DNA from: Candidatus Bathyarchaeia archaeon
GTDB lineage: Archaea; Thermoproteota; Bathyarchaeia; 40CM-2-53-6
Direction of reading: 5' to 3'
Length of the DNA: 64,000 nucleotides
Assembly: GCA_049513715.1 (NCBI GenBank)
Contig: JBEKVV010000005.1
Coordinates: 128,001-192,000, forward strand
The notes beneath the pieces are model-generated. The model saw only the letters and a list, made by a program, of their open reading frames with translations. It searched no databases and was not told the DNA's origin. Position numbers and translations under genes: made by a program. Numbering within the stretch: the first letter of the stretch is position 1; each line of letters starts with the position of its first letter. Shown here piece after piece: positions 32,033 to 54,647 of the stretch.

Positions 32033-32078
32033 TGGTGCGGGGGAGGGGATTTTGACCCCACTTTACCGGTACATATAA
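32033..32078 (-). repeat. Family A copy 1 (arm + tRNA-Leu-like 3' end with CCA)
   Basis: Minus strand: TTATATGTACCGGTAAAGTGGGGTCAAAATCCCCTCCCCCGCACCA. Confidence 0.9.
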
Positions 32079-32175
32079 ACAGGCTTCGTGGGTCCCGTGG
32101 TTCCCACATGGATTTGCCAGTGGGACGCATTTCAAATCATCATGAAATAAGTCGATTCAAGTTCCGTTGTTTTTT

Positions 32176-32234
32176 TACGGTGGGTCGGATTCGAACCCCC
32201 CGTAGTACCCGTGCTTGGCTGGATGAACACCGGA
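32176..32234 (-). repeat. Family C copy 1 (arm + degenerate tRNA 3' end)
   Basis: Minus: TCCGGTGTTC...AGCCAAGCAC...CTACGGGGGGTTCGAATCCGACCCACCGT. Confidence 0.75.
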
Positions 32235-32330
32235 CCGTTCTCGGTTTGGCAGGGTTTGTCGTCGGACAATTCGCTCACAATCTCACTAAATGTGCATCTA
32301 ACTCTAAACCATTTGGCTGATGCCGAACAG

Positions 32331-32358
32331 TCGTGGGGTCGATGGGATACGAACCCAC
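32331..32358 (-). repeat. Isolated tRNA 3'-end fragment (not a full tRNA)
   Basis: Minus: GTGGGTTCGTATCCCATCGACCCCACGA (T-stem, T-loop, acceptor 3' strand). Confidence 0.7.
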
Positions 32359-32453
32359 CAAGATCGGACTTCGAATTCAAAATCAAAGCCAGTAAACAGC
32401 CGTAGATGAGAATTGTAATTTGCAGTGGAAATGAGTGTACAGGGTCCGTCAAA

Positions 32454-32515
32454 TAGTACGCAGGGCCGGATTCGAACCCCCCGTAGCTGTTGTGCTTGGC
32501 TCCGCGAACACCGGA
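32454..32515 (-). repeat. Family C copy 2
   Basis: Minus: TCCGGTGTTC...AGCCAAGCAC...CTACGGGGGGTTCGAATCCGGCCCTGCGTACTA. Confidence 0.75.
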
Positions 32516-32609
32516 TGCTTGCTTTGGGAGAGAAGAATCTAGTAACAAGACTGAAGCTCTCGTATCTTCTCCCGTGGTGAAAAAGCCGCCACTCAAACAG
32601 CACCAGTCG

Positions 32610-32657
32610 GAGATGGGCAGGGGATTTCAACCCCAATTTGCCGGTACATGTAAGCCG
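32610..32657 (-). repeat. Family A copy 2
   Basis: Plus: GAGATGGGCAGGGGATTTCAACCCCAATTTGCCGGTACATGTAAGCCG. Confidence 0.9.
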
Positions 32658-32764
32658 TTGAAACTTGTCACGAAATAATGGAGGGCACAACGTAAGATCC
32701 GACTGCAGAACATTGACGAAAACATACGCTGAGAGGGGAATCAGGGGATAGGTTAAAAACAAAC

Positions 32765-33736
32765 TTGCAACTCAGCCCAATTATGCCTTTAACGCGTATT
32801 TTCTTTACGTCAGATGTTCATGGATCTGATGTGTGCTTCATGAAGTTTCTCAATGCCGCCAAGTTCTACGAAGCGAGCATCCTCATCTTGGGCGGAGACC
32901 TTACTGGGAAGATGATAGTCCCAGTCATAGAACAGTCCGACGGAGAATACACTACCGAGTTTCTTGGCATGCATCAAACACTGAAGACTCGGCAGGCTAA
33001 GGATGAGGTAGTGAAACAGATCCGAGACAGCGGGTACTACCCATACGAAAGCACTCCGAGTGAGGCAGAGAAACTCCGGGAGAACAAGAAACTGGTGGAC
33101 GAGCTTTTTACGAAAGTAATGGTTGATGGAGTTAAGCGATGGGTCTCGATTGCCGAAGAACGATTGAAGGGAACCGGCGTAGAGTGCTACATAAGTCCTG
33201 GAAACGATGACCGATTTGAAGTCGATCCGATTCTAAAAGGATCGCAGAAGATTCATTGCCCTGAGGATGAGGTTGTCTGGTTGGATAAGAACCACGAAAT
33301 GATAACGAGTAGCTGGACGAACCAGACACCCTGGCATAGCCCGCGTGAGACAACAGAGGACAAACTTACTGAGATTTTCGGTAGAATGATCTCAAGAGTT
33401 CAGCGAATGGAAAACTGCATCTTCAACTTACACGTTCCGCCCTACAACACGCCCATGGATTTGGCTCCCGAGCTGGATGAGACGCTGAAACCAGTGGTGA
33501 AGGGTGGGGGGATGAGCATGATTCATGTTGGAAGTACCGCGGTTAGGAGTGCAATTGAGAAGCACCAGCCATTGTTGGGTATCCACGGACACATTCATGA
33601 ATCCCGGGGTTTCGAAAACATCGGAAGAACGCTGGTCCTGAACCCTGGCAGTGAGTACGGGGAAGGAATTCTGCGTGGTGCAATCATTAACCTTGATGAG
33701 AAGAAAGTCAAGAGTTATCTTCTTACCCAAGGATGA
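32765..33736 (+). CDS. Icc-related metallophosphoesterase
   Basis: SDVHGS, GGDLTGK, PGNDD, HVPP, HGHIHE, NPGS. Confidence 0.92.
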   Translation: MQLSPIMPLTRIFFTSDVHGSDVCFMKFLNAAKFYEASILILGGDLTGKMIVPVIEQSDGEYTTEFLGMHQTLKTRQAKDEVVKQIRDSGYYPYESTPSEAEKLRENKKLVDELFTKVMVDGVKRWVSIAEERLKGTGVECYISPGNDDRFEVDPILKGSQKIHCPEDEVVWLDKNHEMITSSWTNQTPWHSPRETTEDKLTEIFGRMISRVQRMENCIFNLHVPPYNTPMDLAPELDETLKPVVKGGGMSMIHVGSTAVRSAIEKHQPLLGIHGHIHESRGFENIGRTLVLNPGSEYGEGILRGAIINLDEKKVKSYLLTQG

Positions 33737-34011
33737 CGGTTGCCAATTTGTCCCTGGATGAAGCACTTTACAGGGTGTGGTTCGTCGTTCGTCCTTAGGT
33801 GGTTTGATCGCTCTCAGGGTAGTAGCTTTCGGACAGAGCTTGGAGGCAAAAGCCGGGATCAGCCAGACTTGAGCCTATTAGTTTTGGTATGCGGGCGACA
33901 TAAGTTGAGCAACCGTAGAATATGATTCAAACCCCCAGGAACATGAGAATCTAGAGATTACAGAAACGAATAAAAGACGGGTTTCGTGAGATCCATATCG
34001 AGTTTTTCTGA

Positions 34012-35223
34012 ATGGAAGTCGACATCCCTAAGCAGGTTTACTACGGGCGAGTCAAGAGAATACGGGAATATTTGCAGGAACACGAACTGAAAGCGCTTCT
34101 GGTCTTCGAAAGTCAAAATCTCATGTACATCTCGGGGTTCATTGATGATTCCGGAAATCCCGTCGAGAGACCGATCGTTTGCGTGGTTCCCCTCGAAGAA
34201 GAACCTTTCATGATACTATGTGAATTGTCCAGGAACCGCGCTCTTTTCGAGATTGAGAGTAAAACGTGCCCAATTGAGGATATACGTTTCTACGCGGAAC
34301 ACCCGCAACAAGTGAATAGGACGTACTACACCACGCAATGGGCAGATATGGTCGTGGATATTCTTGCTGAGAAGAAATGCCTAGGTGGAAGACTCGGCCT
34401 TGATGTTCCACCCGCGAGTGTGGACTCAGTCTTGGCCGTGAAGCTTTCGAAGATGATGGATGCATCAGACCTCCTTCGAGAGATGCGACTCATAAAATGC
34501 AAAGAAGAACTTGATCTAATCAGAGTATGCGGTCCATTTAGCGACTTGGGTCAGGAGGTCTTGAGGCAAGAAATCCATGTTGGAAAGTCGCAACTAGAAA
34601 TCGGTGTGGAAGCCACCACTGCTATGCGACGAGAAGGCGCCAAGAAATATCCAGACGCCTGCATCCGCGCCACAGCCGCAGTATTTGGATCAGGCCCAGT
34701 ATACAGCGTAATGCCTGACGCTGTGCGAGGAGTGGGTAGGAAGCTTGAGCGAGGTGACAACTTGATAGATATCACCGATTTTCGGTTGAACATGTACGGC
34801 GTTGAGAACGAGAGGACCTTCATTATTGGACCCGCCTCTGAAAAACAGGTGAGAGCGTTCAACGTAATGGTTGAAGCACAGGAAAGAGCTTTCGAGGCAG
34901 AAAGACCCGGAAACAAGATGTCAGACGTGGATGCAGCCGCACGAAAAGTCTTTGAAGATGCAGGCTACGGCGACTGTATCTCCCATAGAACATATCACGG
35001 AATGGGGCTTCACATGGGTCAGTATAATCATGAATATCCCTATCTCACATCGTTCATGGAACGCAAAATCATGTCTGGAATGGTGTTTTCCTGCGAGCCG
35101 GGAATCTACGTTCCGGGGGTGGGCGGTTTCAGACATTCTGATACTGTCATCATAACTGATAGTGGACCAGAGAGAGTCACTAACTTTCCGAGAGATCTAG
35201 AATCTTTGACTGTGAAAACATAA
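34012..35223 (+). CDS. M24 (Xaa-Pro peptidase/creatinase fold) protein
   Basis: MRLIK, ENERT, HGMGL, HEYP, CEPGIY, FRHSDT. Confidence 0.9.
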   Translation: MEVDIPKQVYYGRVKRIREYLQEHELKALLVFESQNLMYISGFIDDSGNPVERPIVCVVPLEEEPFMILCELSRNRALFEIESKTCPIEDIRFYAEHPQQVNRTYYTTQWADMVVDILAEKKCLGGRLGLDVPPASVDSVLAVKLSKMMDASDLLREMRLIKCKEELDLIRVCGPFSDLGQEVLRQEIHVGKSQLEIGVEATTAMRREGAKKYPDACIRATAAVFGSGPVYSVMPDAVRGVGRKLERGDNLIDITDFRLNMYGVENERTFIIGPASEKQVRAFNVMVEAQERAFEAERPGNKMSDVDAAARKVFEDAGYGDCISHRTYHGMGLHMGQYNHEYPYLTSFMERKIMSGMVFSCEPGIYVPGVGGFRHSDTVIITDSGPERVTNFPRDLESLTVKT

Positions 35224-35485
35224 ACGGTTTCCGAAAGGCTTCCTCCCGCAGCTTTCCAATGACGTCCTCGGACATTTAGAGAATATCTTGAGTTTTTCCA
35301 CCGTGGTTTCGTTAAACGTATACGAGCGATATTCGAACCACGATGTGATTAGTTTCTGATGCAGTTGAAAGTTAGATTGTTGTTGATTTGTTGACTTTTG
35401 TAAACAATGACACACGTTCGGTCGTAGCCAACGGAAGCGTTAAATACAATGATCCCAGGAGCTAACCTTTCCGAGAAGATATTTT

Positions 35486-37078
35486 ATGTCGAAGGCGAAG
35501 CCGATCGACACACAAGTATACGTTCGTGAAGCGACTGGCCTTGTTCGAGAACTTGGGGCTAAAGATATTTTCATTTGGACAATTGTTTGGTATCCGTTAT
35601 TTGCTTCTTATGTTAACTATTTCTGGTATACGCCTGCGCTTGTTCATAATGTAAACTACTACCTTGCGTTTGGTCTTTGGTTTATTCTCTTCTGCATTTT
35701 TCCGCCTGCATTATGGTGGATGATGATTTCTATCATGCCCAAGACGGGCGGTGACTACGTCTTCACTTCAAGAGCCCTTCATCCAGCGATAGGATTTTCC
35801 GCGAGTTTTTGTGTGACCTTTGCATTGGCTTTGACCGCGATCTCTGGTGGAACTTATTATGGTTTGGCTGAGACAGCCGTACAATTGGAAACGGCTGGTC
35901 AGATATCAGGTAATCAAGCTGTCACAGCAGCTGGTTTACTCATAGATCCTTTTGCGGGCGGCAGCTTGCCTCTGATCTTCGCCTTAGGGGTGATTGTACT
36001 CGTCATTGGAGCTGCATTCGCGTACTTTGGCAGTGGTGTCTTTAACAAGGTAATTTGGGTAATTTTCGGAATAGGTCTCGTCGGTCTCGTAATTGAAGTT
36101 CCCATCCTACTCATGACTTCAAGATCTACGTTCGCTGCTGCCTATGCTCAATACTATTCGGGTGGCGTTCAAGGTGTATTTGCAGCAGCGCAGAAGGGAG
36201 GGTATGTGCCGGGGTATTCGATGGCTGCCACTCTCCTAGCGGTTCCAGTGATTGCGGGAAGCCTGGGGCCCTACCTCGTCCTAGGGAACGTTGCAGGTGA
36301 AGTAAAGAACGTTAAGAGAAGTTATCTGCTCGGACTTTGGGGAGCAATCGTATTGTCGGCTGTTGTTTGGGTAGTTCTAACATTCCTGACGGATCGAGTT
36401 ATTGGCCTAGACTTCATAGAGGCTTGGACCGTTGGCCCGGGAGGCGGCTTTCCGCCGGTCGTGAGTGCGCTATTAACTGTCGTCGCACCTAATCTCACAT
36501 TGAACATCGCTGTGGCACTAATACTCCTGATCTCGAACATTGGTTTCTCGTACCTGGGATTCGCATTCGCAAGTAGGGCGATGCTCGCTTGGGCATTCGA
36601 CCGGGTCGCCCCTGCGAGGCTTGCATATGTAAATGAGAAGTATCATTCGCCGGGTGTGGCCATCCTCGTAACGCTCCTAATTTCATTGTCGGGATGGACT
36701 CTCATCGAGTTTACAAGATTCACCTCCATCGTCTTGAATAGCGACGTGCTGAAGTACGTGGCGTGGGGTGTCGTCAGCCTTTCCGCAGTCATAATGCCCT
36801 TCAGAAAGAAGGAACTCTTTGATAGGTCTCCAGTGAAATACAGAATTGCAGGCGTCCCCGTCATTTCCATATTGGGATTGGTGTCCTTCTTCCTCTACGC
36901 ATACTACATCATATTGTTTACAACAACGAACCTCTTCTTCTCGCCGTCAGTAACACAAGTCTATTTTCTGGCATTTATGTTCGTAATTGCGATTGCGGGA
37001 TACTTTGTCGCATATGCGTACCGGAAATCGAAAGGAATCGACATTACGAAAGCGTTTGAAGAGCTACCGCCAGACTAA
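35486..37078 (+). CDS. APC family amino acid permease
   Basis: REATGLVRE, MPKTGGDYV, SRAMLAWAFDR, FEELPPD; many TM helices. Confidence 0.92.
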   Translation: MSKAKPIDTQVYVREATGLVRELGAKDIFIWTIVWYPLFASYVNYFWYTPALVHNVNYYLAFGLWFILFCIFPPALWWMMISIMPKTGGDYVFTSRALHPAIGFSASFCVTFALALTAISGGTYYGLAETAVQLETAGQISGNQAVTAAGLLIDPFAGGSLPLIFALGVIVLVIGAAFAYFGSGVFNKVIWVIFGIGLVGLVIEVPILLMTSRSTFAAAYAQYYSGGVQGVFAAAQKGGYVPGYSMAATLLAVPVIAGSLGPYLVLGNVAGEVKNVKRSYLLGLWGAIVLSAVVWVVLTFLTDRVIGLDFIEAWTVGPGGGFPPVVSALLTVVAPNLTLNIAVALILLISNIGFSYLGFAFASRAMLAWAFDRVAPARLAYVNEKYHSPGVAILVTLLISLSGWTLIEFTRFTSIVLNSDVLKYVAWGVVSLSAVIMPFRKKELFDRSPVKYRIAGVPVISILGLVSFFLYAYYIILFTTTNLFFSPSVTQVYFLAFMFVIAIAGYFVAYAYRKSKGIDITKAFEELPPD

Positions 37079-37209: not shown

Positions 37210-37254
37210 CTTCAGGGATGGAGCAGGGGATTTCAACCCCAATTTACCAGTACA
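37210..37254 (-). repeat. Family A copy 3
   Basis: Plus: CTTCAGGGATGGAGCAGGGGATTTCAACCCCAATTTACCAGTACA. Confidence 0.88.
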
Positions 37255-37341
37255 AGCAAGAAATGAGTCCGCCTATTTTCTTGCCTTTTAGTGAGAGATG
37301 AGCCCGAATGGATACCCTGGAACTCCAAATCTGGGTACTGT

Positions 37342-38874
37342 TCATTTGCGCCTTTGGTGCGAACGCTTCATCACCAGCAGTGTCAAAGCAGCACCTGTTG
37401 AAACGACAAGAACGATGACAATTATAGTTAGTTGCTCAAGCGAAAGATCAAGGGTTGGCCCTGCTGAGGATAGCGTCCCGATGTTCTGCTGACTCGTAGT
37501 CTGCGTAACGGATACAGTGGGATTCTTTGAGGCTGCGTTTGCCATCTCTGATGCTGATTTCGCAGCCTGCATGGCATCTACGAATCCACCTTCACTGAAT
37601 GACGATTGGGCCTTGGTGAGCTGATTCTTTGCCGCTTCGAGACCGTTGTCTCTAGATTCGATTTGCGCTTTGGAGATGGCGTCTTGTGCGCTTGCGATTA
37701 TGTTGTTTGCTTCATTCGCTTGATTCCCCGTCAAAGCATTTGCTATCATAACCCTGTAAGCGTAACCCGTTCTGTCAACCACGATGATAGAGAAATCTTT
37801 GGCTTGATTGACTAAGGCCGGAATGTTGCTTCGGCCGATGTTGAATGGGGCATCGAACAAGTCCTTTTCTGGATCTGGATTGCTGTTGGGATGAGAGTCT
37901 ACGACTTTGACTTGCCCTTCATCAGATTGGCTGCAACATTCAAGAGTCCATGTTCCATCAACGGTGTAGATGAGGACGCCAAATTGTGGGTCCGGGTAGT
38001 TGGAAGATGAATACAAAGAGAGAGATTGGTCTTCACCAAGCTTCTCTCGGACCTCGACGTAGTATGTCAAAGTAGAGCCCGGCAAGTGAATCCTAGCCAG
38101 ATACGTTTTGCCTGTGGCATTTTCTAGGGCATCGATGGTGATTGTCCTCTGAACACTGTCGCTAACGTCTACTATCTGATTTTTCTGGAGCCACCCGAGT
38201 CTTATCAGAGACCATGAAGTGAACCCGCCGAGGCTCCAAGACATGAGGTCCCATGGTCCAAGCCAAACAGCAGATGGTTTGCTCTGCTCAGCAAGCCCGT
38301 AGCTGTACAAATCTGGAAGGTGGCCTAGTGCGTGACCAAGCTCATGGCAGTAAGTGAAGGAATCCGTATTTTCGTTTTCGAAAGAAACGCCGATGCTTGG
38401 GAACGCATGAGGCCAGACTTCACCCGCATAGACAATGAACGTAATCGCATATTTGCCAGCGCCTATTCCCAACTGCCCCAGACGACCCCGTGCTGTTGCG
38501 TCGACCGTTTGCATCTGGCCATCATCGTAGTTCCATTCAAACAGCTTCATCTCCTTCACCTTAACCGGCAACGTAATCCAATTCGGTAGTACCTCAGCTG
38601 TTAGCTTCAACTTCCCATAAGAAACCGTGGTGTAGTATTCCTGAACTTGCGTCACTGTGATCTCCCGCAATTCATCAATTGACTTTGTGTGAGGCAAATC
38701 TGTGAAATCAAAGAAAGCCACCAAATACTTTGCTTCGTTGGGAACCGTATACGCTTGTGCACTCATCGACTTGTTGAGCCATGGTAAGTAGCTTGTAAAG
38801 ACCAATAAGAGAATAATCAAGCAAGCTAACTTGCTCGCAGCTGACTTACTACGGAAACAAGATTCGGCAGACAT
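37342..38874 (-). CDS. Membrane-anchored M6 (InhA-like) metalloprotease
   Basis: HELGHALGHLPDLY, WDLMS, LGW; N- and C-terminal TM. Confidence 0.88.
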   Translation of the reverse strand: MSAESCFRSKSAASKLACLIILLLVFTSYLPWLNKSMSAQAYTVPNEAKYLVAFFDFTDLPHTKSIDELREITVTQVQEYYTTVSYGKLKLTAEVLPNWITLPVKVKEMKLFEWNYDDGQMQTVDATARGRLGQLGIGAGKYAITFIVYAGEVWPHAFPSIGVSFENENTDSFTYCHELGHALGHLPDLYSYGLAEQSKPSAVWLGPWDLMSWSLGGFTSWSLIRLGWLQKNQIVDVSDSVQRTITIDALENATGKTYLARIHLPGSTLTYYVEVREKLGEDQSLSLYSSSNYPDPQFGVLIYTVDGTWTLECCSQSDEGQVKVVDSHPNSNPDPEKDLFDAPFNIGRSNIPALVNQAKDFSIIVVDRTGYAYRVMIANALTGNQANEANNIIASAQDAISKAQIESRDNGLEAAKNQLTKAQSSFSEGGFVDAMQAAKSASEMANAASKNPTVSVTQTTSQQNIGTLSSAGPTLDLSLEQLTIIVIVLVVSTGAALTLLVMKRSHQRRK

Positions 38875-38935
38875 GTTCCGAATTACCGTCTTCTAGCGTG
38901 TTAAATGCAATCTATATAGCACATGTAGGTTCACG

Positions 38936-38987
38936 TTCAGAGATGGAGAAGGGGATTTTGACCCCAATTTATCGGTACATATAAGCC
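38936..38987 (-). repeat. Family A copy 4
   Basis: Plus: TTCAGAGATGGAGAAGGGGATTTTGACCCCAATTTATCGGTACATATAAGCC. Confidence 0.9.
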
Positions 38988-39027
38988 GGTTCAAATTGCG
39001 TTGCCCGCACCAGCTGACCCACACACA
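38988..39027 (+). repeat. Family B copy (tRNA-like core + GACCCACACAC arm)
   Basis: GGTTCAAAT-TGCGTTGCCCGC-ACCA-GCTGACCCACACACA. Confidence 0.85.
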
Positions 39028-40068: not shown

Positions 40069-40086
40069 AAGGACTAGATGTCTAAG

Positions 40087-47009: not shown

Positions 47010-47010
47010 G

Positions 47011-47062: not shown

Positions 47063-47084
47063 TAGCAATGCAACGAGCAACGTC

Positions 47085-47178: not shown

Positions 47179-47231
47179 AGGAACAAGTCCCGCTCAAACG
47201 ACGATAAGACGCCACTAGTTCACAATAGTGA

Positions 47232-47726: not shown

Positions 47727-47772
47727 TGAAGCATCGCTTTCAATCTGTTCCTCTCAGTCACATGATCCGGTG

Positions 47773-47800
47773 GTGTGTGGGTCTGGTGGTGCCCACACAC
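47773..47800. repeat. Family B arm (minus) forming a 9-bp inverted repeat
   Basis: GTGTGTGGG-TCTGGTGGTG-CCCACACAC. Confidence 0.7.
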
Positions 47801-47832
47801 ACTAAAACGACGTGGGAACGACGTACGACGAC

Positions 47833-47857
47833 GGTTCAAATCCCTCTCCCGGCGCCA
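47833..47857 (+). repeat. tRNA(Ser)-like 3'-end fragment (att-like), not a full tRNA
   Basis: GGTTCAAATCCCTCTCCCGGCGCCA; no upstream D or anticodon arms. Confidence 0.8.
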
Positions 47858-48087
47858 ATTTGTTGGTACGTGTAAATAGCTGATTATGGCAATAATGATG
47901 AGCATTCTAGTAACGAAACTCATCATATGTCCTCTTCACCAAGGAGCCTATTTGTGTATGTCACTTCTCACAATCATGATGAGTCATGTGAAGGGATTGA
48001 ATGTGAGCCCGTTTAGGTGGCAGCATGATTCTACCCATGCCGAGGTCTTAAGTACTTAGCATAAGCATGTAGCTGTTAGAAACTTTC

Positions 48088-50859
48088 TTGAAGCCTATTA
48101 CTCGGGCTTTGTTGGTTCTGCTTATTTTGACGTTGGCAGCCGGCGGCATAGTTTACTACTGGATGTTCGCCCGGCAAACTATTCCCGTGATTACCACGGG
48201 CCAGCCGGCAGCGCAATTCACTTTCTTTCTTAACCCCCCATTTTTCCACGTTGCCGCCGGTGAAGGAAAAAACATTACCACGTTCGTACAGCGAACGAGC
48301 GGTTTTTCGGGTGCTGTTAAGATTGAAATTGTGAATCCGCCGAGTTGGATAACCTACAACGCTATGACGGTCGACACAACCGTTTCAAACGCCACTTTCG
48401 CGATTATTGCTTCGCAGGATGCTCCTAAGACTGAATTGAATCTGACAGTGAGGGCGTCATCGGCGGGTGCCGCCGACCAAGTCGCAACATTGGACATGAA
48501 GGTTGTCGGTGTCTCCACTGTAACGTCAGACCATGGCTCAGCGGTTCTGTATGATACGACAAAGTTTCTCGATACCGACACGTTGAAGTCGCTCACCGCC
48601 TACTCAAATGGGACATTTGTTTTCTCCGCTGTCACTCCGCAACTGCAAAGTCTTGCTCGCGGCGACGTAATGGTGGTTCAGCCATCAAGCACACCTCTCG
48701 CAAAATTCGGTTTGGTACGCCTCGTTCTGTCGGTAACTCGGGAAGGAGGAGGTGTGATTGTGCAGACTATTCAGGCGACGCTGTTCGATGAATTGCAGCA
48801 GCTCCATGTTGGCTTTGGCAATGCTACATCGGTGCAGGCAGCACCCGGATCACTTGCTCCCGCCGCGATCCCGGACAATCCGAATCTCCCTACCGGCACA
48901 ACGCCAAACGTTGTTTTCGAGGACTGGTTTACCCTTTACAGTGGCCATTTTGGGACAGGTGGAGAGCGGTCTATTCCGGGCGGTGACGTTACCTTCTCAG
49001 CGGACGCGGGTATTGGAGTTGAGCTGGGACCTATGATCGACATTGCATGGTCAGTAGGACATCCGATTCCATCACTGGACCAGGCTAGATTGAATGTTAT
49101 TTATTGGGAAGATTTGACGCTTGCAGTGAAAGGAAGCGCAGGATCCCAACTGAACTATGAAGACGATAATCTACAACAGCTCTACTACGGCTCGATCCCG
49201 CTTGTTCCGGGCGTTTGGCTCGTCATATCAGCTACCCTGGAAGGTAAGGCCTCGGGAACGCTGCAACAGAACATCAACGGATACTTCCACCAAGGTATGA
49301 ATTATGAAATGGGCCCAACTTACAGCTCCGACGAGGGGTGGTTCTTTTACTACCGCTGTAACTCAGAAACTCGGGGGGAATGCGACCCACCGACATTCGA
49401 CAACCCACAGTTCTCGATCTCGGCAGGTTCTGGTTCTGATGCTACGATTGAGTTGGGCCCCATGGTGAAGGTCAGTGTGGACGCGGACATAGGCGTAGCT
49501 GATGCGGCTGGCTTTGCGTCGCTGTCAGGGCTCTTGTTCGTGACATTGAAATCACAGATTCCCAGACCCTCAGACAGACCGCACTCCTGGTGGCTTGAGT
49601 GGGGGCTTGACGGAGATTTCGAACTAGGACTCTCCTTGTCCGTTGGCATCTCGGTAGCAGGATACGAGATTGGGTTCTCGACGTGTCTGTGTTCCCCGCC
49701 TGCCCAAGGCAGATTGATTGGACCTGGTACACTATTCAACGGATTCGCCATTCCACCATTGGTTACTATCACATCCCCAAAGGACGGCTCAAACCTCGAC
49801 TACAACTCGCTCACGATATTCCCTTCCTTCACTGCAACTGCCACTGGAGAAGACGGTGATCTCTGCAGTGGACCTCCGCAGAACCTCATATGGTCTGATG
49901 AGTATGGTCAAATTGGTACTGGCTGCACTCTTCCCAGCGTGACGTTCAATCAGGATGGTGTTCACCATATCCAATTTACTGCAACAGACAGTGCTGGCTC
50001 AAGTTCAAGCGCTACGGTAACCGTATCAGTAATCCTAGCCAAGCCTGACGTGTACATAACCAAACCCCTTGACAATGAACAGTTCATGGTGGATGAACCC
50101 GTGACGCTTGAAGGCTACGCAATGCTGAAACTGACCAATCTTCCGTGCAACGGTGCTTCAGGGAAATTGGTTTTCAATATCTGGTTGTACGCCAATATCC
50201 CGTCCCAACCGGAATCCGGAACACAGTACTGCACCGCCACAACGACCTTCGACAAGCCAGGAACTTACTCCATCTTCCTAGTCGCCCAAGACAGTTCCGG
50301 AAAAACAACGGGCTTTTCGAAGCACGTAGAAATCAACATAATCGAGCCTTCGCAAGGTACAAACTACCCACCCAGCGTTCAGATTATTTCACCAAACGAT
50401 CAACAATCCTTCCTCTACTTGAATTGGAAGATCACTCTGGATGGAACCGTATTCGACTGGGAGGGAGACCCGCTCGGAACCTATACTTGGTCCTACGTTC
50501 CTCTATCCCTATCACAATCACCCGTAACGATAGCGACGGGCCCCCTTCCACCCTCCTCACAATGCACTAAAGATACACCATGCCACGTGACCGCCTCCCT
50601 AAACACGAATGACTATTGCAAGGACAATCCGACGGGCGGAGATCTGGCAATAGTGCTTGAGGCAACAGAAACAGGACCCGTCGAACAAACGGGTAAGAGT
50701 CAACCGGTCACGATTCATCTGTCCTGTGAAAAGCAAGTAGCGATCATCACACCAATCATTAACCAACCGCCTCCAGCAGCACATCCGAATGTCAGCGTTT
50801 CCGCAAACGGGCCTCAACGACGAATTCTCGAAAACCATTCGTGCAAGGTATGCCCATGA
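48088..50859 (+). CDS. Large secreted/membrane-anchored protein with PKD/Ig-like repeats
   Basis: N-terminal TM; repeated P.V.I.SP.D...ITL.G units; Cys pairs. Confidence 0.8.
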   Translation: MKPITRALLVLLILTLAAGGIVYYWMFARQTIPVITTGQPAAQFTFFLNPPFFHVAAGEGKNITTFVQRTSGFSGAVKIEIVNPPSWITYNAMTVDTTVSNATFAIIASQDAPKTELNLTVRASSAGAADQVATLDMKVVGVSTVTSDHGSAVLYDTTKFLDTDTLKSLTAYSNGTFVFSAVTPQLQSLARGDVMVVQPSSTPLAKFGLVRLVLSVTREGGGVIVQTIQATLFDELQQLHVGFGNATSVQAAPGSLAPAAIPDNPNLPTGTTPNVVFEDWFTLYSGHFGTGGERSIPGGDVTFSADAGIGVELGPMIDIAWSVGHPIPSLDQARLNVIYWEDLTLAVKGSAGSQLNYEDDNLQQLYYGSIPLVPGVWLVISATLEGKASGTLQQNINGYFHQGMNYEMGPTYSSDEGWFFYYRCNSETRGECDPPTFDNPQFSISAGSGSDATIELGPMVKVSVDADIGVADAAGFASLSGLLFVTLKSQIPRPSDRPHSWWLEWGLDGDFELGLSLSVGISVAGYEIGFSTCLCSPPAQGRLIGPGTLFNGFAIPPLVTITSPKDGSNLDYNSLTIFPSFTATATGEDGDLCSGPPQNLIWSDEYGQIGTGCTLPSVTFNQDGVHHIQFTATDSAGSSSSATVTVSVILAKPDVYITKPLDNEQFMVDEPVTLEGYAMLKLTNLPCNGASGKLVFNIWLYANIPSQPESGTQYCTATTTFDKPGTYSIFLVAQDSSGKTTGFSKHVEINIIEPSQGTNYPPSVQIISPNDQQSFLYLNWKITLDGTVFDWEGDPLGTYTWSYVPLSLSQSPVTIATGPLPPSSQCTKDTPCHVTASLNTNDYCKDNPTGGDLAIVLEATETGPVEQTGKSQPVTIHLSCEKQVAIITPIINQPPPAAHPNVSVSANGPQRRILENHSCKVCP

Positions 50860-52121
50860 CTAGGCCAACCGTACTTGGTCGCCGCACCCTGCACCTCGTA
50901 GCAATCATCGGGCTGCTCATCGTATTGGTTCAAGTGCCAGCGACACATGCGGCAACGCTCACACTCACCTCAGACCCTGACTGCGTCTCCCGTGGTCCAG
51001 ACCAGGTGGATTGTTTCGCTAGAGGACAGGACAACGCGCTCTGGCACTTATACCGCAAGGCAGGAACATGGTCCAGTTGGGAGTCCCTTGGAGGCAACCT
51101 AACCTCAGGGCCGTCGGCAACCTCATGGGGACCAGACCGTCTAGACATGTTTGCTAGAGGACCCGACAATGGGTTGTGGCACGTGTGGTGGGATGGATCA
51201 CTTCATCCATGGGAGTCTTTGGGCGGCGCAATTACAAGCAACCCAGATTGCACTTCCATCCCAACTACCCAGGAGATTTTCTGCTTCGCCAGAGGTCCCC
51301 AAAAGGCTCTCTGGTACACTGGCTTTTCCGGCGGAACCTGGACCACATGGAAGTCCTTAGGTGGGATCCTAGCCTCAGGCCCAGGGGTTTCATCCTGGAA
51401 GGATGACGTGGAAATCTTCGTGAAAAGCACGGATAACGCGATGTGGCAGATATCCATGGGAGCGGGAGGGAGCTTAAGCCAGTGGCAGAAAAGGGGTGGC
51501 GCACTTACCTCGGACCCTGACGCTGTCTCATGGGGGCCGAACCGTATTGATATTGTTGTGAGAGGTCCTGACAATGGGATCTGGTACAAGTGGATGAACG
51601 GAGGAACATGGAGCAATGGCTGCCAGGGCTGTGACGGATATTATAATCTAGGCGGTAAATCAATTTCAGGACCCACAATCGCGTCCAGAGATGTGAATAG
51701 CCTTGATGTCTTTACTGTAAGCACGGACAATCACCTCTATCACAAAGGATGGAACGGAGCCGTTTGGAGTCCCTGGGAAGCCATCCCGATGACAATGGCG
51801 CCCACAGGCATGACAACGACGACGAGCCAGCCAACATCTGTCAGTAGCGGCTCCACGACGATTTCTCCAATATCGATCGCCAGTAGTAGCTCTACCTCTC
51901 CGGTAGTAACTCCATCCGTCACAGTCACCTCGACACCTACGTCATTGTTCACTCAATCACCGAGCACACAAACTCCTAACCAGACTGGAATAGGGGAGAT
52001 TTTGGCTACGCTGCAGCCGACTGACCTGATCGTAATCGGCGGCATTGTTGTCATTGCGGGTGTCTTGATTGCGCTCGTGTTGAGAGTACGCGGAAAACCA
52101 GCATCAGACACTAGTTCATGA
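50856..52121 (+). CDS. PLL/fucose-lectin-like beta-propeller surface protein with Ser/Thr stalk and TM
   Basis: Repeats of FARG.DN.LWH..W.SLGG.LTS.P; ATGA overlap with upstream gene. Confidence 0.85.
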   Translation: MTRPTVLGRRTLHLVAIIGLLIVLVQVPATHAATLTLTSDPDCVSRGPDQVDCFARGQDNALWHLYRKAGTWSSWESLGGNLTSGPSATSWGPDRLDMFARGPDNGLWHVWWDGSLHPWESLGGAITSNPDCTSIPTTQEIFCFARGPQKALWYTGFSGGTWTTWKSLGGILASGPGVSSWKDDVEIFVKSTDNAMWQISMGAGGSLSQWQKRGGALTSDPDAVSWGPNRIDIVVRGPDNGIWYKWMNGGTWSNGCQGCDGYYNLGGKSISGPTIASRDVNSLDVFTVSTDNHLYHKGWNGAVWSPWEAIPMTMAPTGMTTTTSQPTSVSSGSTTISPISIASSSSTSPVVTPSVTVTSTPTSLFTQSPSTQTPNQTGIGEILATLQPTDLIVIGGIVVIAGVLIALVLRVRGKPASDTSS

Positions 52122-52373
52122 GGGAAGGGCATAGTCTACAGCATCCAATGCGGATCCCAAAATCCCAATGGCAATGAGTTCTGTGGAAAATGTGGCACTG
52201 AAGTTCAAGACTAGTGCCCGGTTCGTCCCTAGTATGTTGGTGCGCACACCCACTTTTTCACGCTCCTCGCTTCGCTTTGTGTGATATGACTGGTGCGCGA
52301 CGACGACGAAAAGACGGATGGTCTGTGGGTTGGGGTTTGTTGTTAGGTGGTTTGTGGTTGAGTGGTTAGTGGC

Positions 52374-52400
52374 GTGTGCGCACCACTATACCCACACACA
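52374..52400 (+). repeat. Family B partial copy
   Basis: GTGTGCGCACCACTATACCCACACACA; 12-bp inverted partner TGGTGCGCACAC at 52238-52249. Confidence 0.75.
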
Positions 52401-52532
52401 TTCATCGCGGAGGATGGGAAGAGGTTGCTGAAGGAGTGGCTCACAGAACGAGAATCGATGCTGGAAAAAGCAGGGCTAGAGGATTCAGACTATTTCTTCC
52501 TTAACTGGCGTCGGAAATCGAGATGCAGGTAA
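52389..52532 (+). pseudogene. Probable tyrosine recombinase/integrase internal fragment
   Basis: YPHTFIAEDGKRLLKEWLTERESMLEKAGLEDSDYFFLNWR resembles the patch II-III segment; no start codon, no catalytic boxes. Confidence 0.5.
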
Positions 52533-52600
52533 CAGCCGCGGAACACGGGCATGATGCACAGGCTTAAGTTGCCTATGATAGAGCTATCGGTGATAGGCCA

Positions 52601-54415
52601 TTGTTCTTCCGTGTCTTGAGTTCAAACCGAGCTTTGGCTTTGGTCGTTGCCTCGATGGTGATATTGTCTGTTATTTCCCCTACCGTGAGAGTTGGTGCTA
52701 TAACCACGATACTTGATCAGCAGTGTTCAACTGTTGGTGGATTTTACCTAAACGGCATCGGTGCATCTGAGCCCGCAGGGCAGACGTTCACGCCGACCCA
52801 AACATCTGTGGTAGCCTTCTCAATTAACATCTATTCGACAAGCCCCTTTCCCACACCTATGACGGCGAAGATACTAGCGGGAGGAATCGGTGGAGCGGTA
52901 CAGGGGTCCGTTAACTTCAACGTTCCGGCCGTTTTCGGTTTGCCAAGTGGCGACTGGTTCAAAGTGCAGTTTACCAGTGGAGTTCCGGTGATCCCTGGTT
53001 CGATTTATGCGCTTGATCTCACCGACAATCTCGCCTCTTCTGGCATTAAGTGGAATGGCTGTAAGGATAGCTATCCCGGGGGAAAGGCGTACTCCAGCGG
53101 GAGCTATAACACATATAACACAGTCGGAGCCTCTTACAGTTTCAAGGAGTATGCGTTCGGCCTGACGGTGACACCGGTCGCGACGCCGGATTTCTCAATC
53201 TCATCCTCTCTTGCCGCCATACCGGTAACACAGGGAGGAAGCAATACAGCTACAATTACGGTGACTTCGATTAACGGACTCAATTCGGCAGTTGACCTGT
53301 CTGCTTCTTGGGTTGGGTCCGCACCGACTGGCGTGACATTCACGCTACCGACCCCGATAACGCCACCGTCAGGAAGCACTGCGACATCACCATTGATAAT
53401 TGTGGCTACCGGAAGCGCCTCCACAGGAAGTTTCACCCTTCGTGTGACTGGGACGAGCGGATTGCTCAGTCACGATGTCATACCTGACATAACAATACAA
53501 GTGGCGGCAGTCACAACAAGCACAACAACACCACCAACACCAGCTACGGATTGGGCAGTTCTCTCCGTTTCGCTAAGCCCTTCTGCTCCACATGTCGGTG
53601 ACCCGGTCACATTCAGTATGGTAGTGACCGCGCTCTCGTCTCCGGGACCATTTCCGCAGAGCTTTGCTGCTGTTTGCCAGATCGACGGAGTATCCTGTGG
53701 TGGTGGCTCTCATACCTACCCTGGACCACTGGATACTCCTTTCACTGTAAGCGCGCAAACACCTTGGATTGCGACGGTTGGTACGCATACTCTGACCTGG
53801 GGAGTCGCCACGATCCCAGTGGGTCTCGACCCGGACAAGAGTAACAATATGAAGAGCACTACTTTCACGGTGGCACAAGCATCCTCACAGCAAACGACGA
53901 CAGCCTCTTCGACCGCGTCTCAGGCTCCTGATTTTCAGGTTAATGTGAGTCCGCCATCCCAAACCGTGCTTCAAGGCGAGACGACTTCATATGCGGTTGA
54001 TGTTGCTGGTTTGAACGGGTTCAATTCGCAGGTTTCATTGTCTGTCTCAGGATTGCCTCCGGGCGCGAATGGAGTCTTCAGTAACCCCTCGGGAACTCCA
54101 AACTTTGCTTCAACCCTCACGGTCATATTATCGGGGGATGTTGCAACTGGTTCGTATACGTTGGTGGTGACCGGGAGTGGAGGAGGATTAAGCCACGTGG
54201 CCAACCTAGTTCTAACAGTTAACGCAGCCGTAGTAACGCAAACCTCAGCCTCCTCAACTGAAACCGTAGCGTCTTCAACTCAAACATCAAGCGACCTGAC
54301 GAGCATGATCCAACAAAACCAACTCCTCATACTCGCAGCCGTAGTCTTGTTGGCAGCCGTCATAATTGCGGTAGCGTTGCGTGGCCGACGAAAACCAACC
54401 TCAACCACCAACTAA
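52601..54415 (+). CDS. Secreted, C-terminally anchored surface protein with Ig/CARDB-like domains
   Basis: Signal peptide, two PDF.I/V..S..V.QG repeats, CARDB-like segment, Thr-rich stalk, TM + RGRRK. Confidence 0.85.
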   Translation: MFFRVLSSNRALALVVASMVILSVISPTVRVGAITTILDQQCSTVGGFYLNGIGASEPAGQTFTPTQTSVVAFSINIYSTSPFPTPMTAKILAGGIGGAVQGSVNFNVPAVFGLPSGDWFKVQFTSGVPVIPGSIYALDLTDNLASSGIKWNGCKDSYPGGKAYSSGSYNTYNTVGASYSFKEYAFGLTVTPVATPDFSISSSLAAIPVTQGGSNTATITVTSINGLNSAVDLSASWVGSAPTGVTFTLPTPITPPSGSTATSPLIIVATGSASTGSFTLRVTGTSGLLSHDVIPDITIQVAAVTTSTTTPPTPATDWAVLSVSLSPSAPHVGDPVTFSMVVTALSSPGPFPQSFAAVCQIDGVSCGGGSHTYPGPLDTPFTVSAQTPWIATVGTHTLTWGVATIPVGLDPDKSNNMKSTTFTVAQASSQQTTTASSTASQAPDFQVNVSPPSQTVLQGETTSYAVDVAGLNGFNSQVSLSVSGLPPGANGVFSNPSGTPNFASTLTVILSGDVATGSYTLVVTGSGGGLSHVANLVLTVNAAVVTQTSASSTETVASSTQTSSDLTSMIQQNQLLILAAVVLLAAVIIAVALRGRRKPTSTTN

Positions 54416-54514
54416 ACCCTAACTGATCCATCAATTCGAACCCTCGCTGAGCATAGTGTGCATATCTATCGGTGCGGTCGCCTTGAGTCGGCCGGCCGTC
54501 GTTCACGTAATTTC

Positions 54515-54557
54515 GTGTGTGTGTGGGTCCAGTGGTGCGGCCGCCGGAACTCGAACC
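54515..54557 (-). repeat. Family B copy with tRNA(Gly)-like core
   Basis: Minus: GGTTCGAGT-TCCGGCGGCCGC-ACCA-CTGGACCCACACACACAC. Confidence 0.85.
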
Positions 54558-54599
54558 TACCTACGTGAATCCTTGGGACGCAGGGAAATCATCTAACTC

Positions 54600-54647
54600 G
54601 TGCGGGGGAGGGGATTTCAGCCCCACTTTACCGGTACATATAAGCCG
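54600..54647 (-). repeat. Family A copy 9 (tRNA-Leu-like acceptor retained)
   Basis: Plus: GTGCGGGGGAGGGGATTTCAGCCCCACTTTACCGGTACATATAAGCCG; near-identical to copy 1. Confidence 0.9.

What the first reader, a model, noticed from the sequence alone, without database searches (positions are those of the whole stretch)
32033..54647. Integron/tycheposon-like cassette island whose junctions are tRNA-3'-derived att-like sites
Seen: over about 22.6 kb, most junctions between blocks of unrelated accessory genes carry short repeats with tRNA 3' geometry (GGTTCRAAT-like T-loop, 12 nt, then NCCA or a degenerate version). I found none in the first 31.9 kb. Blocks between successive family A copies: metallophosphoesterase+M24+APC; M6 protease alone; arginase alone; ICMT+bacterioferritin+phosphoesterase+DUF1059+YegP; LMW-PTP alone; Ubl/Zn-ribbon genes; surface proteins. 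Known: tyrosine integrases use tRNA 3' ends as attB and leave a duplicated 3' fragment; Prochlorococcus tycheposons leave partial-tRNA repeats in islands; integrons use attC rather than tRNA cores. Inference: an integrase acting in trans repeatedly adds small, integrase-less gene cassettes at tRNA-derived sites. That would be an archaeal gene-capture platform that is neither a classical integron nor a provirus.
Basis: partly seen in the sequence, partly recalled or inferred. Interest (0 to 1): 0.92.

Follow-up and report, generated by a model that had tools for sequence, protein, structure and literature searches.

The report
tRNA-anchored array of integrase-less gene cassettes
In this peat archaeon, small blocks of unrelated accessory genes are stacked behind a tRNA gene and separated by a 51-base recombination site that copies the tRNA's tail, so one integrase may be able to collect and reshuffle genes that carry no mobility gene of their own.

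Summary
There are none in the first 32 kb.

FamA is a hairpin (GGGG-N7-CCCC) between two conserved arms. In the two border copies, hairpin plus left arm is the reverse complement of the last 27 nt of a multi-intron class II tRNA gene (probably Leu). That gene lies 28 kb beyond the window's end. The right arm recurs only once outside FamA: directly after that tRNA's CCA, beside the only integrase of its kind in the genome (Xer-like).

So the finding is the far third of a ~60-kb island. The genome holds 51 FamA copies, clustered and co-oriented, with no integrase remnants.

Flanks are swapped at FamA, and some cassettes are 89-94% identical between species whose core is 65-81% identical.

It is not an integron: no IntI domain, no attC fold, no gene polarity. 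Movement of cassettes in trans is inferred, not shown; Logan contigs showed no circle junctions.

It is a new variant of tRNA-anchored accretion islands (tycheposon-like, CALIN-like). This scan has noted similar arrays before on other DNA, including another peat Bathyarchaeon.

The parts
32029..32082 (+). FamA type 2, the distal border of the whole island. Left arm plus hairpin is the reverse complement of the tRNA's last 27 nt including CCA; then comes the right arm.
   Evidence: nhmmer E 6.7e-14. BLAST of the tRNA region matches window 32,033-32,059 on the minus strand at 93%.
32085..32600 (-). Stretch of decayed T-arm/acceptor-like fragments of other tRNAs (32,176-32,234; 32,340-32,375; 32,457-32,515). 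No credible gene.
   Evidence: Direct repeat D7, sequence read. Rfam gives only a sub-threshold PreQ1 hit. The 154-aa ORF has no Pfam family.
32605..32657 (+). FamA, type-1-like
   Evidence: nhmmer E 1.2e-13
32765..37078 (+). Cassette block 1: metallophosphoesterase-like, M24 peptidase, amino-acid permease
   Evidence: Pfam
37210..37263 (+). FamA type 1 (end of right arm degenerate)
   Evidence: nhmmer E 6.1e-14
37342..38874 (-). Cassette 2: single 510-aa M6-like metalloprotease
   Evidence: NCBIfam TIGR03296 2e-18, below cut-off
38935..39027 (+). FamA type 1 followed directly by FamB (T-loop-like, 12 nt, ACCA, CA-rich tail)
39043..39936 (-). Cassette 3: arginase-family gene
   Evidence: Pfam PF00491 2.4e-29
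40033..40262 (+). FamB tail (40,033-40,070), FamA lacking its right arm (40,085-40,127), FamB (40,224-40,262)
40366..43170 (.). Cassette block 4: ICMT-type methyltransferase, ferritin-like, metallophosphoesterase, DUF1059, DUF1508. The phosphoesterase part (41,629-42,442) has a 98.5% copy at C3:122,456-123,266.
   Evidence: Pfam; self-BLAST
43292..43319 (+). Truncated FamA (left arm plus half hairpin). It is conserved as the left edge of the LMW-PTP cassette in another species.
   Evidence: nhmmer E 4.6e-4; 91% match 43,308-43,815 in G012
43387..43812 (+). Cassette 5: LMW phosphotyrosine phosphatase
   Evidence: Pfam PF01451 4.5e-28
43830..43883 (+). FamA with a variant left arm
   Evidence: nhmmer E 5e-11
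44032..47009 (.). Cassette block 6: 104-aa ORF, Zn-ribbon protein, ubiquitin-like protein, 264-aa ORF
   Evidence: Pfam
47011..47064 (+). FamA type 1. The DNA to its right recurs at C6:4,217-5,000 (98%) behind a different left arm.
47086..47880 (+). Nested small element: two tandem FamB copies, a 164-aa ORF (47,232-47,726), an inverted FamB tail, then another tRNA's 3'-end-like piece followed by a degenerate copy of the arm
   Evidence: In G013 and G012 the same ORF (91-94%) lies between inverted FamB copies.
48088..54415 (+). Cassette block 7: PKD-domain 923-aa protein, DUF346-repeat protein, 604-aa ORF
   Evidence: Pfam
54517..54565 (-). FamB-type copy on the minus strand, close to the 3' end and downstream tail of the gene ARAGORN calls tRNA-Val at C3:86,163
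   Evidence: sequence compared
54594..54647 (+). FamA type 2, the second copy that carries the tRNA acceptor/CCA complement. Its 83-nt left flank recurs at C6:4,964-5,092 (93%).

Best explanation
Window 32,029-54,647 is the distal third of a roughly 60-kb accretion island (C5:160,034-220,118). The island lies downstream of a multi-intron class II tRNA gene, probably tRNA-Leu.

The blocks are separated by FamA, a 51-nt double-strand recombination site of a Xer-like tyrosine integrase. FamA has three parts:
1. A 17-nt arm, TTTACCGGTACAYATAA.
2. A GGGG-N7-CCCC hairpin that mimics the tRNA T-arm. Parentage of the flanks switches there.
3. A left arm. It is either the complement of the tRNA acceptor strand plus CCA (type 2, the displaced tRNA end) or a conserved 14-nt arm, TTCAGAGATGGGGC (type 1).

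Shown:
- the anatomy of the site
- its derivation from the tRNA 3' end
- its link to the single integrase module
- its clustering and common orientation
- the absence of integrases in the blocks
- flank swaps at the site
- cassettes shared between species

Inferred:
- An integrase-bearing element first integrates at the tRNA and leaves a type-2 site.
- Integrase-less circles, each carrying one FamA, are then inserted, excised and exchanged at FamA sites by that integrase, or by a transient relative acting in trans.
- The result is cassette arrays without gene polarity.
For: Site boundaries. Information content across 45 strong copies is 0.4-2.0 bits over positions 2-52 and 0.3 bits or less over the 80 nt on each side.

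Copy number and placement. There are 51 nhmmer hits in 2.79 Mb. 30 of 35 neighbouring pairs lie within 10 kb (random mean 6.2, maximum 13 in 1,000 trials), and 28 of those 30 are co-oriented. 33 of 45 copies lie within 12 kb of a contig end, a zone that makes up 8.7% of the genome.

Derivation from the tRNA. The 3' end of the ~205-nt gene at C5:220,118-220,320(-) matches window 32,033-32,059(-) at 93%. The gene region matches in 21 of 22 genus relatives, nearly full-length in 12. In all 12 loci read, the DNA diverges straight after CCA. After in-silico removal of two variable inserts, ARAGORN recognised a full tRNA in 1,743 of 3,430 boundary variants, 1,488 of them Leu.

Link to the integrase. 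The 21-nt arm pattern (up to 2 mismatches) hits the genome 38 times. 37 hits are FamA. The other abuts the tRNA's CCA at C5:220,100-220,120, followed by a 182-aa ORF that reads like a ribbon-helix-helix protein by eye and a 319-aa integrase. The reversed control pattern gives 0 hits.

The predicted two-armed form (inverted arm, tRNA 3'-like core, arm) exists in 5 metagenome contigs.

Integrase class. It is Xer-like: XerA_Arch 181.6 bits, and PDB XerA 2.3e-16.

No other integrase.
- Only 2 PF00589 matches in the genome pass the cut-off.
- tblastn finds no fragments.
- 0 recombinases among the 137 ORFs scanned in the other FamA-rich regions or among the island ORFs scanned, apart from that one integrase.

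Spacing. The median FamA-to-FamA distance is 2.3 kb, and many gaps are 0.4-1.7 kb. That is too small for autonomous elements.

Flank swaps.
- The C6:5,007 copy has the left flank of window 54,600 and the right flank of window 47,017. The switch falls in the 3' half of the hairpin.
- C5:206,437 (type 1) and C1:892,382 (type 2) share 2.3 kb on the right at 96%.

Cassettes shared between species at 89-94%, against a core of 65-81%. The LMW-PTP cassette in G012 keeps FamA remnants at both edges in a different neighbourhood.

Same layout elsewhere. A tRNA with oppositely oriented FamA copies downstream is seen at C9, C3:421.8 kb and C1:124.5 kb, and in G013, where 5 copies follow the tRNA with no integrase among the ORFs scanned.
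Against: No excision product, circle junction or empty site was seen. In Logan contigs of 4 peat runs (2017-2021), one 8,140-nt contig with no differences spans four FamA sites in 3 of the runs. Every listed 'joint' has 43 nt or less on one side, that is, a repeat cross-match. Contigs cannot show rare variants.

Close orthologues of the integrase (63-66% identity) occur in only 4 of 22 relatives. Those 4 carry just 1-5 arm copies. G013 (100% complete, 9 copies) and G004 (16 copies) have no orthologue.

The type-1 left arm has no source that I could find outside FamA. A longer form puts about 62 nt between the hairpin and an acceptor-like end, which the simple model does not explain.

Hairpin loops differ between copies. 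If the loop were the strand-exchange overlap, unlike sites should not recombine.

The duplicates used as flank-swap evidence are 93-98% identical, not 100%. The bin has 8.8% contamination, so some may come from co-assembled strains.
Confidence: 0.68

Rival explanations
1. Classical serial integration only. Each block is what remains of an autonomous integrase-bearing element that integrated at the tRNA, pushed older ones outward (as in tycheposon or Islander-type tandem islands), and then lost its integrase and replication genes by deletion. FamA copies are inert scars. Nothing moves in trans.
For: An intact tRNA with an integrase module sits at the proximal end, and displaced tRNA 3' ends (type 2) sit at 54,600 and at the far border 32,035. 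Two-armed junctions, as expected between tandem elements, exist in metagenome contigs. The arrangement is stable over 2017-2021. Sites persist in genomes without the integrase. Tandem re-use of one att site is known in archaea (PMC6563490, passages) and in Prochlorococcus (bioRxiv 10.1101/2020.12.28.424599, passages).
Against: There is not one integrase fragment next to some 50 sites. Spacings of 0.4-3 kb hold intact, unrelated genes. Both sides of the 51-nt unit are conserved and sharply bounded, whereas a scar should keep only the element-side arm. The type-1 arm is conserved in most copies yet is not tRNA flank. Single cassettes are shared between species with FamA at their edges.
Confidence: 0.22
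2. FamA is a self-spreading short repeat (MITE/REP-like) or a transcription signal (promoter, terminator, small RNA) that merely marks intergenic DNA in variable regions.
For: The unit is short, mostly intergenic (35 of 45 copies do not overlap an ORF of 80 aa or more) and carries a small hairpin and a TATA-like stretch.
Against: Flanking genes show no strand bias: 23 same and 19 opposite downstream, 18 and 23 upstream. Copies are co-oriented within clusters whatever the gene strand (28 of 30). No Rfam family matches. The fold is no better than shuffles (z -0.2 to +0.95). There are no terminal inverted repeats or target duplications. The unit shares 27 nt with a tRNA end and its arm with the integrase-side att site.
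Confidence: 0.06
3. A true (divergent) integron: FamA is an attC and the integrase is an IntI.
For: An array of gene cassettes separated by one site family, with one tyrosine recombinase at the end.
Against: The integron-integrase models score far below cut-off: TIGR02249 42.5 against 265, PRK15417 24.2 against 435. No single-strand attC-like fold. No Rfam hit. Genes lie in both orientations. The site is a tRNA 3' copy.
Confidence: 0.03

Closest known systems
Tycheposon-built genomic islands of Prochlorococcus (Hackl et al., bioRxiv 10.1101/2020.12.28.424599; passages read)
   Same: The islands sit next to tRNA genes. Tyrosine-recombinase elements integrate at the tRNA, and new arrivals push older DNA outward. 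Partial tRNA copies are scattered through the island, and the cargo is niche-related genes.
   Different: There, elements carry integrase plus replication modules, and remnants include fragmented integrases. Here about 50 junctions lack any integrase trace. The junction is a conserved, sharply bounded 51-nt three-part site rather than a bare partial tRNA. Blocks are often single genes. The host is an archaeon, and the target tRNA is interrupted by inserts.
Integrons and CALINs, including archaeal ones (Ghaly et al. 2022, PMC9668308; passages read)
   Same: Arrays of small, recombinase-less cassettes are separated by one family of recombination sites, with one Xer-related tyrosine recombinase at the array end. 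Arrays without the recombinase occur in relatives.
   Different: No IntI-specific domain. The site does not fold as single-strand attC. Cassette genes have no common orientation. The site derives from a tRNA 3' end and the array is anchored to a tRNA gene.
dif modules of Acinetobacter plasmids (PMC6449649; search listing and start of abstract only; details recalled)
   Same: Gene modules of one to a few genes without a recombinase of their own are bounded by short Xer-type sites and are thought to be shuffled in trans by a Xer recombinase.
   Different: Those sites are 28-bp XerC/XerD sites in alternating orientation on plasmids (recalled). Here the sites are 51 nt, directly repeated, chromosomal, tRNA-derived, and tied to a dedicated integrase rather than the housekeeping Xer.
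tRNA-integrating archaeal elements and their tandem arrays (Krupovic et al. 2019, PMC6563490; passages read)
   Same: A tyrosine integrase recombines with the 3' part of tRNA genes, intron-bearing ones included, and the same site is re-used to form arrays.
   Different: The elements described there each carry an integrase, and the att repeats are short (median 17 bp). No multi-copy, integrase-less cassette system is described in the passages I read.

Membership tests
Integron (IntI + attC cassette array) | Integrase with the IntI-specific additional domain | tested here: not met
   TIGR02249 42.5 bits (cut-off 265); PRK15417 24.2 bits (cut-off 435). The best model is archaeal XerA at 181.6 bits (cut-off 220).
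Integron (IntI + attC cassette array) | attC: imperfect inverted repeat that folds as a single strand across the whole site | tested here: not met
   Six 66-nt stretches folded as DNA give z -0.20 to +0.95. Only the 4-bp hairpin recurs. No Rfam match.
Integron (IntI + attC cassette array) | Cassette ORFs mostly in one orientation relative to the site | tested here: not met
   Downstream genes: 23 same strand, 19 opposite, 3 none. Upstream: 18, 23 and 4.
Integron (IntI + attC cassette array) | Tandem array of recombinase-less cassettes separated by one site family, with a recombinase gene at one end | tested here: met
   15 co-oriented FamA hits on C5:160-220 kb (the last, at the tRNA gene, marginal at E 0.49), with the integrase at C5:218,588-219,544.
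tRNA-anchored island built by serial site-specific integration (Islander/tycheposon type) | Intact target tRNA gene at one end, restored by element-borne sequence, with the integrase adjacent | tested here: met
   Gene at C5:220,118-220,320(-), conserved in the genus. The arm follows CCA, then the 182-aa ORF and the integrase.
tRNA-anchored island built by serial site-specific integration (Islander/tycheposon type) | Displaced copy of the tRNA 3' end as a direct repeat at the far border | tested here: met
   Window 32,033-32,059(-), 93% over 27 nt; a second copy at about 54,600.
tRNA-anchored island built by serial site-specific integration (Islander/tycheposon type) | Each unit is, or was, an autonomous element with its own integrase | tested here: not met
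   tblastn of the integrase against the genome at E<=1 finds only itself and four weak matches (E 0.024-0.75), three of them at other recombinase-like loci. No recombinase in the island ORFs or in 137 ORFs of the other arrays.
Tycheposons | Hallmark replication module (primase/helicase/polymerase) linked to the integrase | tested here: inconclusive
   The four ORFs beyond the integrase and the 182-aa ORF in the 4.2-kb integrase module have no Pfam or NCBIfam family. None was folded.
Xer-dependent dif modules | 28-bp XerC/XerD-type sites in alternating orientation around each module | tested here: not met
   The sites are 51 nt and directly repeated (28 of 30 neighbouring pairs co-oriented).
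MITE/REP-type dispersed repeat | Terminal inverted repeats with target duplication, dispersed in random orientation | tested here: not met
   No conservation outside the unit and no flanking duplication. Copies are clustered and co-oriented.

The most novel reading that the evidence does not exclude
A double-strand, orientation-free analogue of the integron in Bathyarchaeia. A dedicated Xer-like integrase (with a small DNA-binding partner) uses a 51-nt tRNA-tail mimic as a universal cassette site. With it, the enzyme captures, stacks and exchanges integrase-less one- to five-gene cassettes among several tRNA-anchored arrays in one genome and between species. About 5-7% of this genome would be organised this way. 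Type-2 sites would act as attI-like entry points and type-1 sites as attC-like cassette sites.
Probability: 0.35. Interest if true: 0.8.

Novelty: new variant of a known kind. Interest (0 to 1): 0.62.

Why it matters
Bathyarchaeia are abundant, uncultured soil and sediment archaea, and how they gain and swap accessory genes is largely unknown.

This locus offers a concrete, testable machine: one integrase, one small partner protein, one 51-nt site with defined arms, and dozens of natural substrates. That machine could explain how metabolic, transport and surface genes are stockpiled and exchanged between species without plasmids or viruses in view.

It also shows that integron-like cassette arrays can arise from ordinary tRNA-targeting integrases, independently of IntI and attC. 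That bears on the unsolved question of how gene cassettes originate.

In practice, the site pattern marks flexible DNA in fragmented MAGs: 33 of 45 copies lie near contig ends, which helps explain why these assemblies break.

Tried and rejected
- tRNA genes in the window: ARAGORN found 0. Rfam at E<=10 gave only a sub-threshold PreQ1 hit. ARAGORN intron mode on the whole genome gave many doubtful calls and missed the target gene.
- I first guessed a Nitrososphaera host from GC content and genome size. Record titles of relatives say Bathyarchaeia.
- I first read the tRNA as Ser. The discriminator A and ARAGORN after intron removal favour Leu. The anticodon is unresolved (taa, gag and cag solutions).
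- Reading FamA as a conserved C-terminal coding end, or as a C/D-box RNA, was dropped. No ORF runs into it and no box motifs are present.
- Reads: all 24 runs found are Logan contigs from peat or wetland metagenomes and may include the source sample. Laying 4 of them gave only repeat cross-match 'joints' with 43 nt or less on one side. That is no verdict on circles or excision.
- Empty-site search: synteny within the genus is too weak, even for the core-like left flank.
- Two-armed site in the own genome or in the fetched loci: none.
- Of 110 metagenome stretches matching the two-armed pattern, only 5 have the tRNA-like centre. The rest are unrelated palindromes. I examined 3 of the 5, and none has an integrase nearby.
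- IMG/VR: no relative of the integrase. Two arm-pattern hits lack the hairpin and are chance matches.
- A native source for the type-1 arm: none outside FamA.
- Literature: searches, plus passages read, turned up no description of this site or of cassette arrays in Bathyarchaeia. Supplements were not opened.
- (a MAFFT script) returned no answer. I replaced it with anchored, ungapped alignments.

Full report
**Setting.** The window is C5:128,001-192,000 of a 2.79-Mb, 11-contig bin that is 99.4% complete with 8.8% contamination. Public records holding the same repeat are almost all titled Bathyarchaeia or Bathyarchaeota MAGs: 22 of 29 loci. Three more are 'archaeon RBG_16_50_20', one is a Promethearchaeati bin, and three bacterial loci lack the hairpin. 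Earlier notes of this scan also call this genome a peat Bathyarchaeon with multi-intron tRNA genes.

The repeat finder returned a 7-copy, 51-nt family. A profile built from the genome's own copies finds 8 copies in the window, all on the + strand. They start at about 32,029, 32,605, 37,210, 38,935, 40,085, 43,292, 43,830 and 54,594, and none lies in the first 32 kb.

The 'T-loop + 12 nt + NCCA' geometry belongs to a second family, FamB: 5 matches against 0.45 expected, all between 38,989 and 47,857. G+C dips slightly, to 0.46-0.50 over 32-48 kb against 0.49-0.52 before.

**Anatomy of FamA.** I anchored 45 strong copies without gaps. Information content is 0.4-2.0 bits over positions 2-52 and 0.3 bits or less in the 80 nt on either side. 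FamA is therefore a discrete unit, not the edge of a longer shared sequence. It has three parts:
- a left arm
- a GGGG-N7-CCCC hairpin with variable loops
- a right arm, AATTTACCGGTACATATAAGC

Most copies have the left arm TTCAGAGATGGGGC (type 1). A minority, including both borders of the finding (32,029 and 54,594), have TGGTGCGGGGGA (type 2).

**The parent tRNA and the integrase lie outside the window.** At C5:220,118-220,320, on the minus strand, lies a ~205-nt gene. It starts GCGGGGG, has a class-II-type D region and variable arm, carries the T-arm GGGGTTCAAATCCCC, and ends CCCCCGC-A-CCA.
- Its region matches in 21 of 22 genus relatives, nearly full-length in 12. In all 12 loci read, the DNA diverges immediately after CCA, as expected of an insertion hot spot.
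- Two variable inserts interrupt it. After removing them in silico, ARAGORN recognised a whole tRNA in 1,743 of 3,430 boundary variants, 1,488 of them Leu. The anticodon is unresolved.
- BLAST matches its last 27 nt to window 32,033-32,059 on the minus strand at 93%. A type-2 FamA is therefore the displaced tRNA tail read backwards.
- Directly after the gene's CCA comes TTTTACCGGTACACATAA, which is FamA's right arm. A 182-aa ORF follows; its N-terminus looks ribbon-helix-helix by eye and it has no significant family match. Then comes a 319-aa tyrosine integrase: PF00589 2e-27, best model archaeal XerA at 181.6 bits (below the 220 cut-off), best solved relative XerA 5hxy at 2.3e-16.
- With up to 2 mismatches, the 21-nt arm pattern occurs 38 times in the genome. 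37 are FamA and one is this tRNA-adjacent site. The reversed control gives 0.

**Predicted attP architecture, then found.** Together these facts predict an element site of the form: inverted arm, tRNA 3' segment, arm. No such two-armed site exists in this genome or in the loci I had fetched. A pattern scan of public metagenome contigs returned 5 clear cases among 110 palindromic matches: L157, L154, L094, L090 and L110. In each, the two inverted arms flank a T-arm-like hairpin plus acceptor-CCA. The three I examined lie between ordinary genes, not beside an integrase. That is how an internal junction between stacked units should look.

**Extent and distribution.**
- On C5 the array resumes after window 54,647 at 206,437 and has 15 co-oriented profile hits between 160,034 and 220,143, the last a marginal one (E 0.49) at the tRNA gene itself. 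The finding is thus the distal third of a ~60-kb island.
- Genome-wide there are 51 hits (45 strong). 30 of 35 neighbouring pairs are within 10 kb (random mean 6.2, maximum 13). 28 of those 30 are co-oriented. 33 of 45 copies lie within 12 kb of a contig end.
- Other class II tRNA genes with the same tail have oppositely oriented FamA copies downstream: C9, C3:421.8 kb and C1:124.5 kb.
- In relative G013, five FamA copies follow the orthologous tRNA in the same relative orientation, with no integrase among the ORFs scanned.
- The arm occurs in 17 of 22 genus relatives at 1-16 copies, against 38 here. A longer pattern found none in 12 genomes of other genera of the order.

**The blocks have no mobility genes.**
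- Only two PF00589 matches in the genome pass the cut-off. The other, at C1:532 kb, I take to be the housekeeping Xer, which I did not test.
- tblastn of the integrase finds no fragment anywhere.
- None of the 137 ORFs in about 130 kb of other FamA-rich DNA is a recombinase or transposase. Among the island ORFs scanned, only that one integrase is.
- The median FamA spacing is 2.3 kb.
- Flanking genes show no strand preference. This argues against a promoter or terminator role and sets the array apart from integrons.

**Evidence for exchange at the site.**
- The C6:5,007 copy combines the left arm and 83-nt flank of window 54,594 (93%) with the right flank of window 47,011 (98% over 776 nt). 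Parentage switches between the loop and the first bases of the arm.
- C5:206,437 (type 1) and C1:892,382 (type 2) share 2.3 kb to the right at 96% but have different left sides.
- The LMW-PTP cassette (43,308-43,815) is 91% identical in G012. There it keeps a decayed FamA at each edge but has other neighbours.
- The phosphoesterase and ORF164 segments are 89-94% identical in G013, G012 and G032. Core-like DNA left of the island is only 65-81% identical in five relatives and is not syntenic.
- Caveat: the intragenomic copies are 93-98% identical, not 100%, and could partly reflect co-binned strains.

**What speaks against an active in-trans system.**
- Contigs from four peat runs (2017-2021) show the same arrangement. 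One 8,140-nt contig without differences spans four FamA sites in 3 of the runs. There is no credible alternative junction, although contigs hide rare variants.
- Close integrase orthologues (63-66% identity) occur in 4 of 22 relatives, each about 0.6 kb downstream of a tRNA-tail copy. Site-rich relatives lack them.
- The type-1 arm occurs nowhere outside FamA.
- Five copies, plus two in relatives, carry about 62 nt between the hairpin and an acceptor-like CTCCCCGCACCA. I cannot explain that form.

**Second family.** FamB is a T-loop-like GTTCAAAT, about 5 variable nt, TGCYCGC-ACCA, then a tail like CTAGACCCACACACAC. It resembles the 3' end and downstream tail of the gene ARAGORN calls tRNA-Val at C3:86,163. 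A loose regular expression finds 37 sites, a few of them real tRNA ends. FamB often sits as 50-nt tandem pairs or directly after FamA. In G013 and G012, inverted FamB copies bracket the 164-aa ORF of window 47,232-47,726. The island therefore also holds att-like relics derived from other tRNAs.

**Comparison with known systems.**
- It works most like a tycheposon or Islander-type tRNA island, but its units lack integrases and the junction is a conserved three-part site.
- It looks like an integron or CALIN but fails three defining tests: the IntI domain, the attC fold and cassette polarity.
- The idea of recombinase-less modules bounded by Xer-type sites recalls Acinetobacter dif modules (abstract only; details recalled).
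- My literature searches found no description of this site or of such arrays in Bathyarchaeia.
- This scan's own earlier notes record similar tRNA-anchored, integrase-less arrays in other genomes, one of them a peat Bathyarchaeon at tRNA-Arg. Those notes are leads, not independent evidence.

**Verdict.** I rate it a new variant of a known kind, with interest 0.62.

Noticed in passing
L008:13,118-13,320 (= C5:220,118-220,320, minus strand; outside the window): Class II tRNA gene (probably Leu) of about 205 nt, interrupted by at least two inserts, one in the D-arm region and one or two around the anticodon arm. It is conserved across the genus with variable insert sequences. Neither ARAGORN nor Rfam detects it unaided.
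   Followed up: partly
window 47,068-47,880: Small nested element: a 164-aa ORF of no known family bracketed by FamB units (tRNA-Val-like tail copies). The same ORF at 91-94% identity lies between inverted FamB copies in two other species and has a 98% copy on C6. It may be a separate mobile unit with tRNA-like ends.
   Followed up: partly
C2:8,977, C6:9,445, C7:29,680, C9:2,224, C10:7,670; L014:2,094; L036:573: A longer form of FamA type 1. After the hairpin come about 62 conserved nt (with a GGGTTCAAACG motif) and then an acceptor-like CTCCCCGCACCA. It looks as if a tRNA tail carried an intron-like insert between T-arm and acceptor strand. In two copies the native downstream flank of the C1 tRNA follows.
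   Followed up: partly
L007:12,489-13,421; L007:11,697-11,999; L075:4,274-4,843; L032:5,653-5,979; L037:17,956-18,897: Extra copies of basal information-processing genes (TFB, eIF-1A, TBP, a TFIIS-type Zn ribbon) lie inside FamA-rich accessory DNA, in this genome and in G013.
   Followed up: no
C5:206,446-210,728 vs C1:888,639-892,385 vs C5:98,130-101,268: A PAS histidine kinase/response regulator module exists in three copies at 90-96% identity. Two lie behind FamA sites and one in FamA-free DNA 60 kb upstream, which hints that host genes were copied into the arrays.
   Followed up: no
window 31,634-32,000: The ~370 nt just left of the first FamA (it holds a 59-aa ORF) is itself repeated at C1:823,636 (96%), C7:40,974 (95%), C6:8,850 (79%) and C5:210,941 (74%, again ending at a FamA). 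The true island border may therefore lie a little left of 32,029.
   Followed up: no
window 54,703-55,029 and L067:5,754-6,101: Two ORFs, each with only the first ~40 residues matching LMW-PTP, lie just inside FamA arrays (on C5 and C4; 69% DNA identity). An intact LMW-PTP is a cassette of its own at 43,387-43,812.
   Followed up: no
C5:221,598-222,047; C4:1-450; C6:283-726; C8:283-726: A repeat of 450 nt or more (88-96% identity) sits at four contig ends. Helicase C-terminal ORFs sit at the ends of C4 and C3. This is probably a multi-copy element that breaks the assembly next to the arrays.
   Followed up: no
L008:6,048-7,391: An amino-acid permease is split into 346-aa and 96-aa ORFs, a likely frameshift or pseudogene, inside the island.
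   Followed up: no
L072:1,332-2,246 and L076:709-1,065: Terminase large-subunit N- and C-terminal fragments lie on two FamA-bearing contig ends (C11, C3), possibly remains of a head-tailed provirus. A 717-aa ORF on C11 has a weak, partial Pfam match to a ribosome-inactivating-protein domain (1e-7, 33 residues).
   Followed up: no
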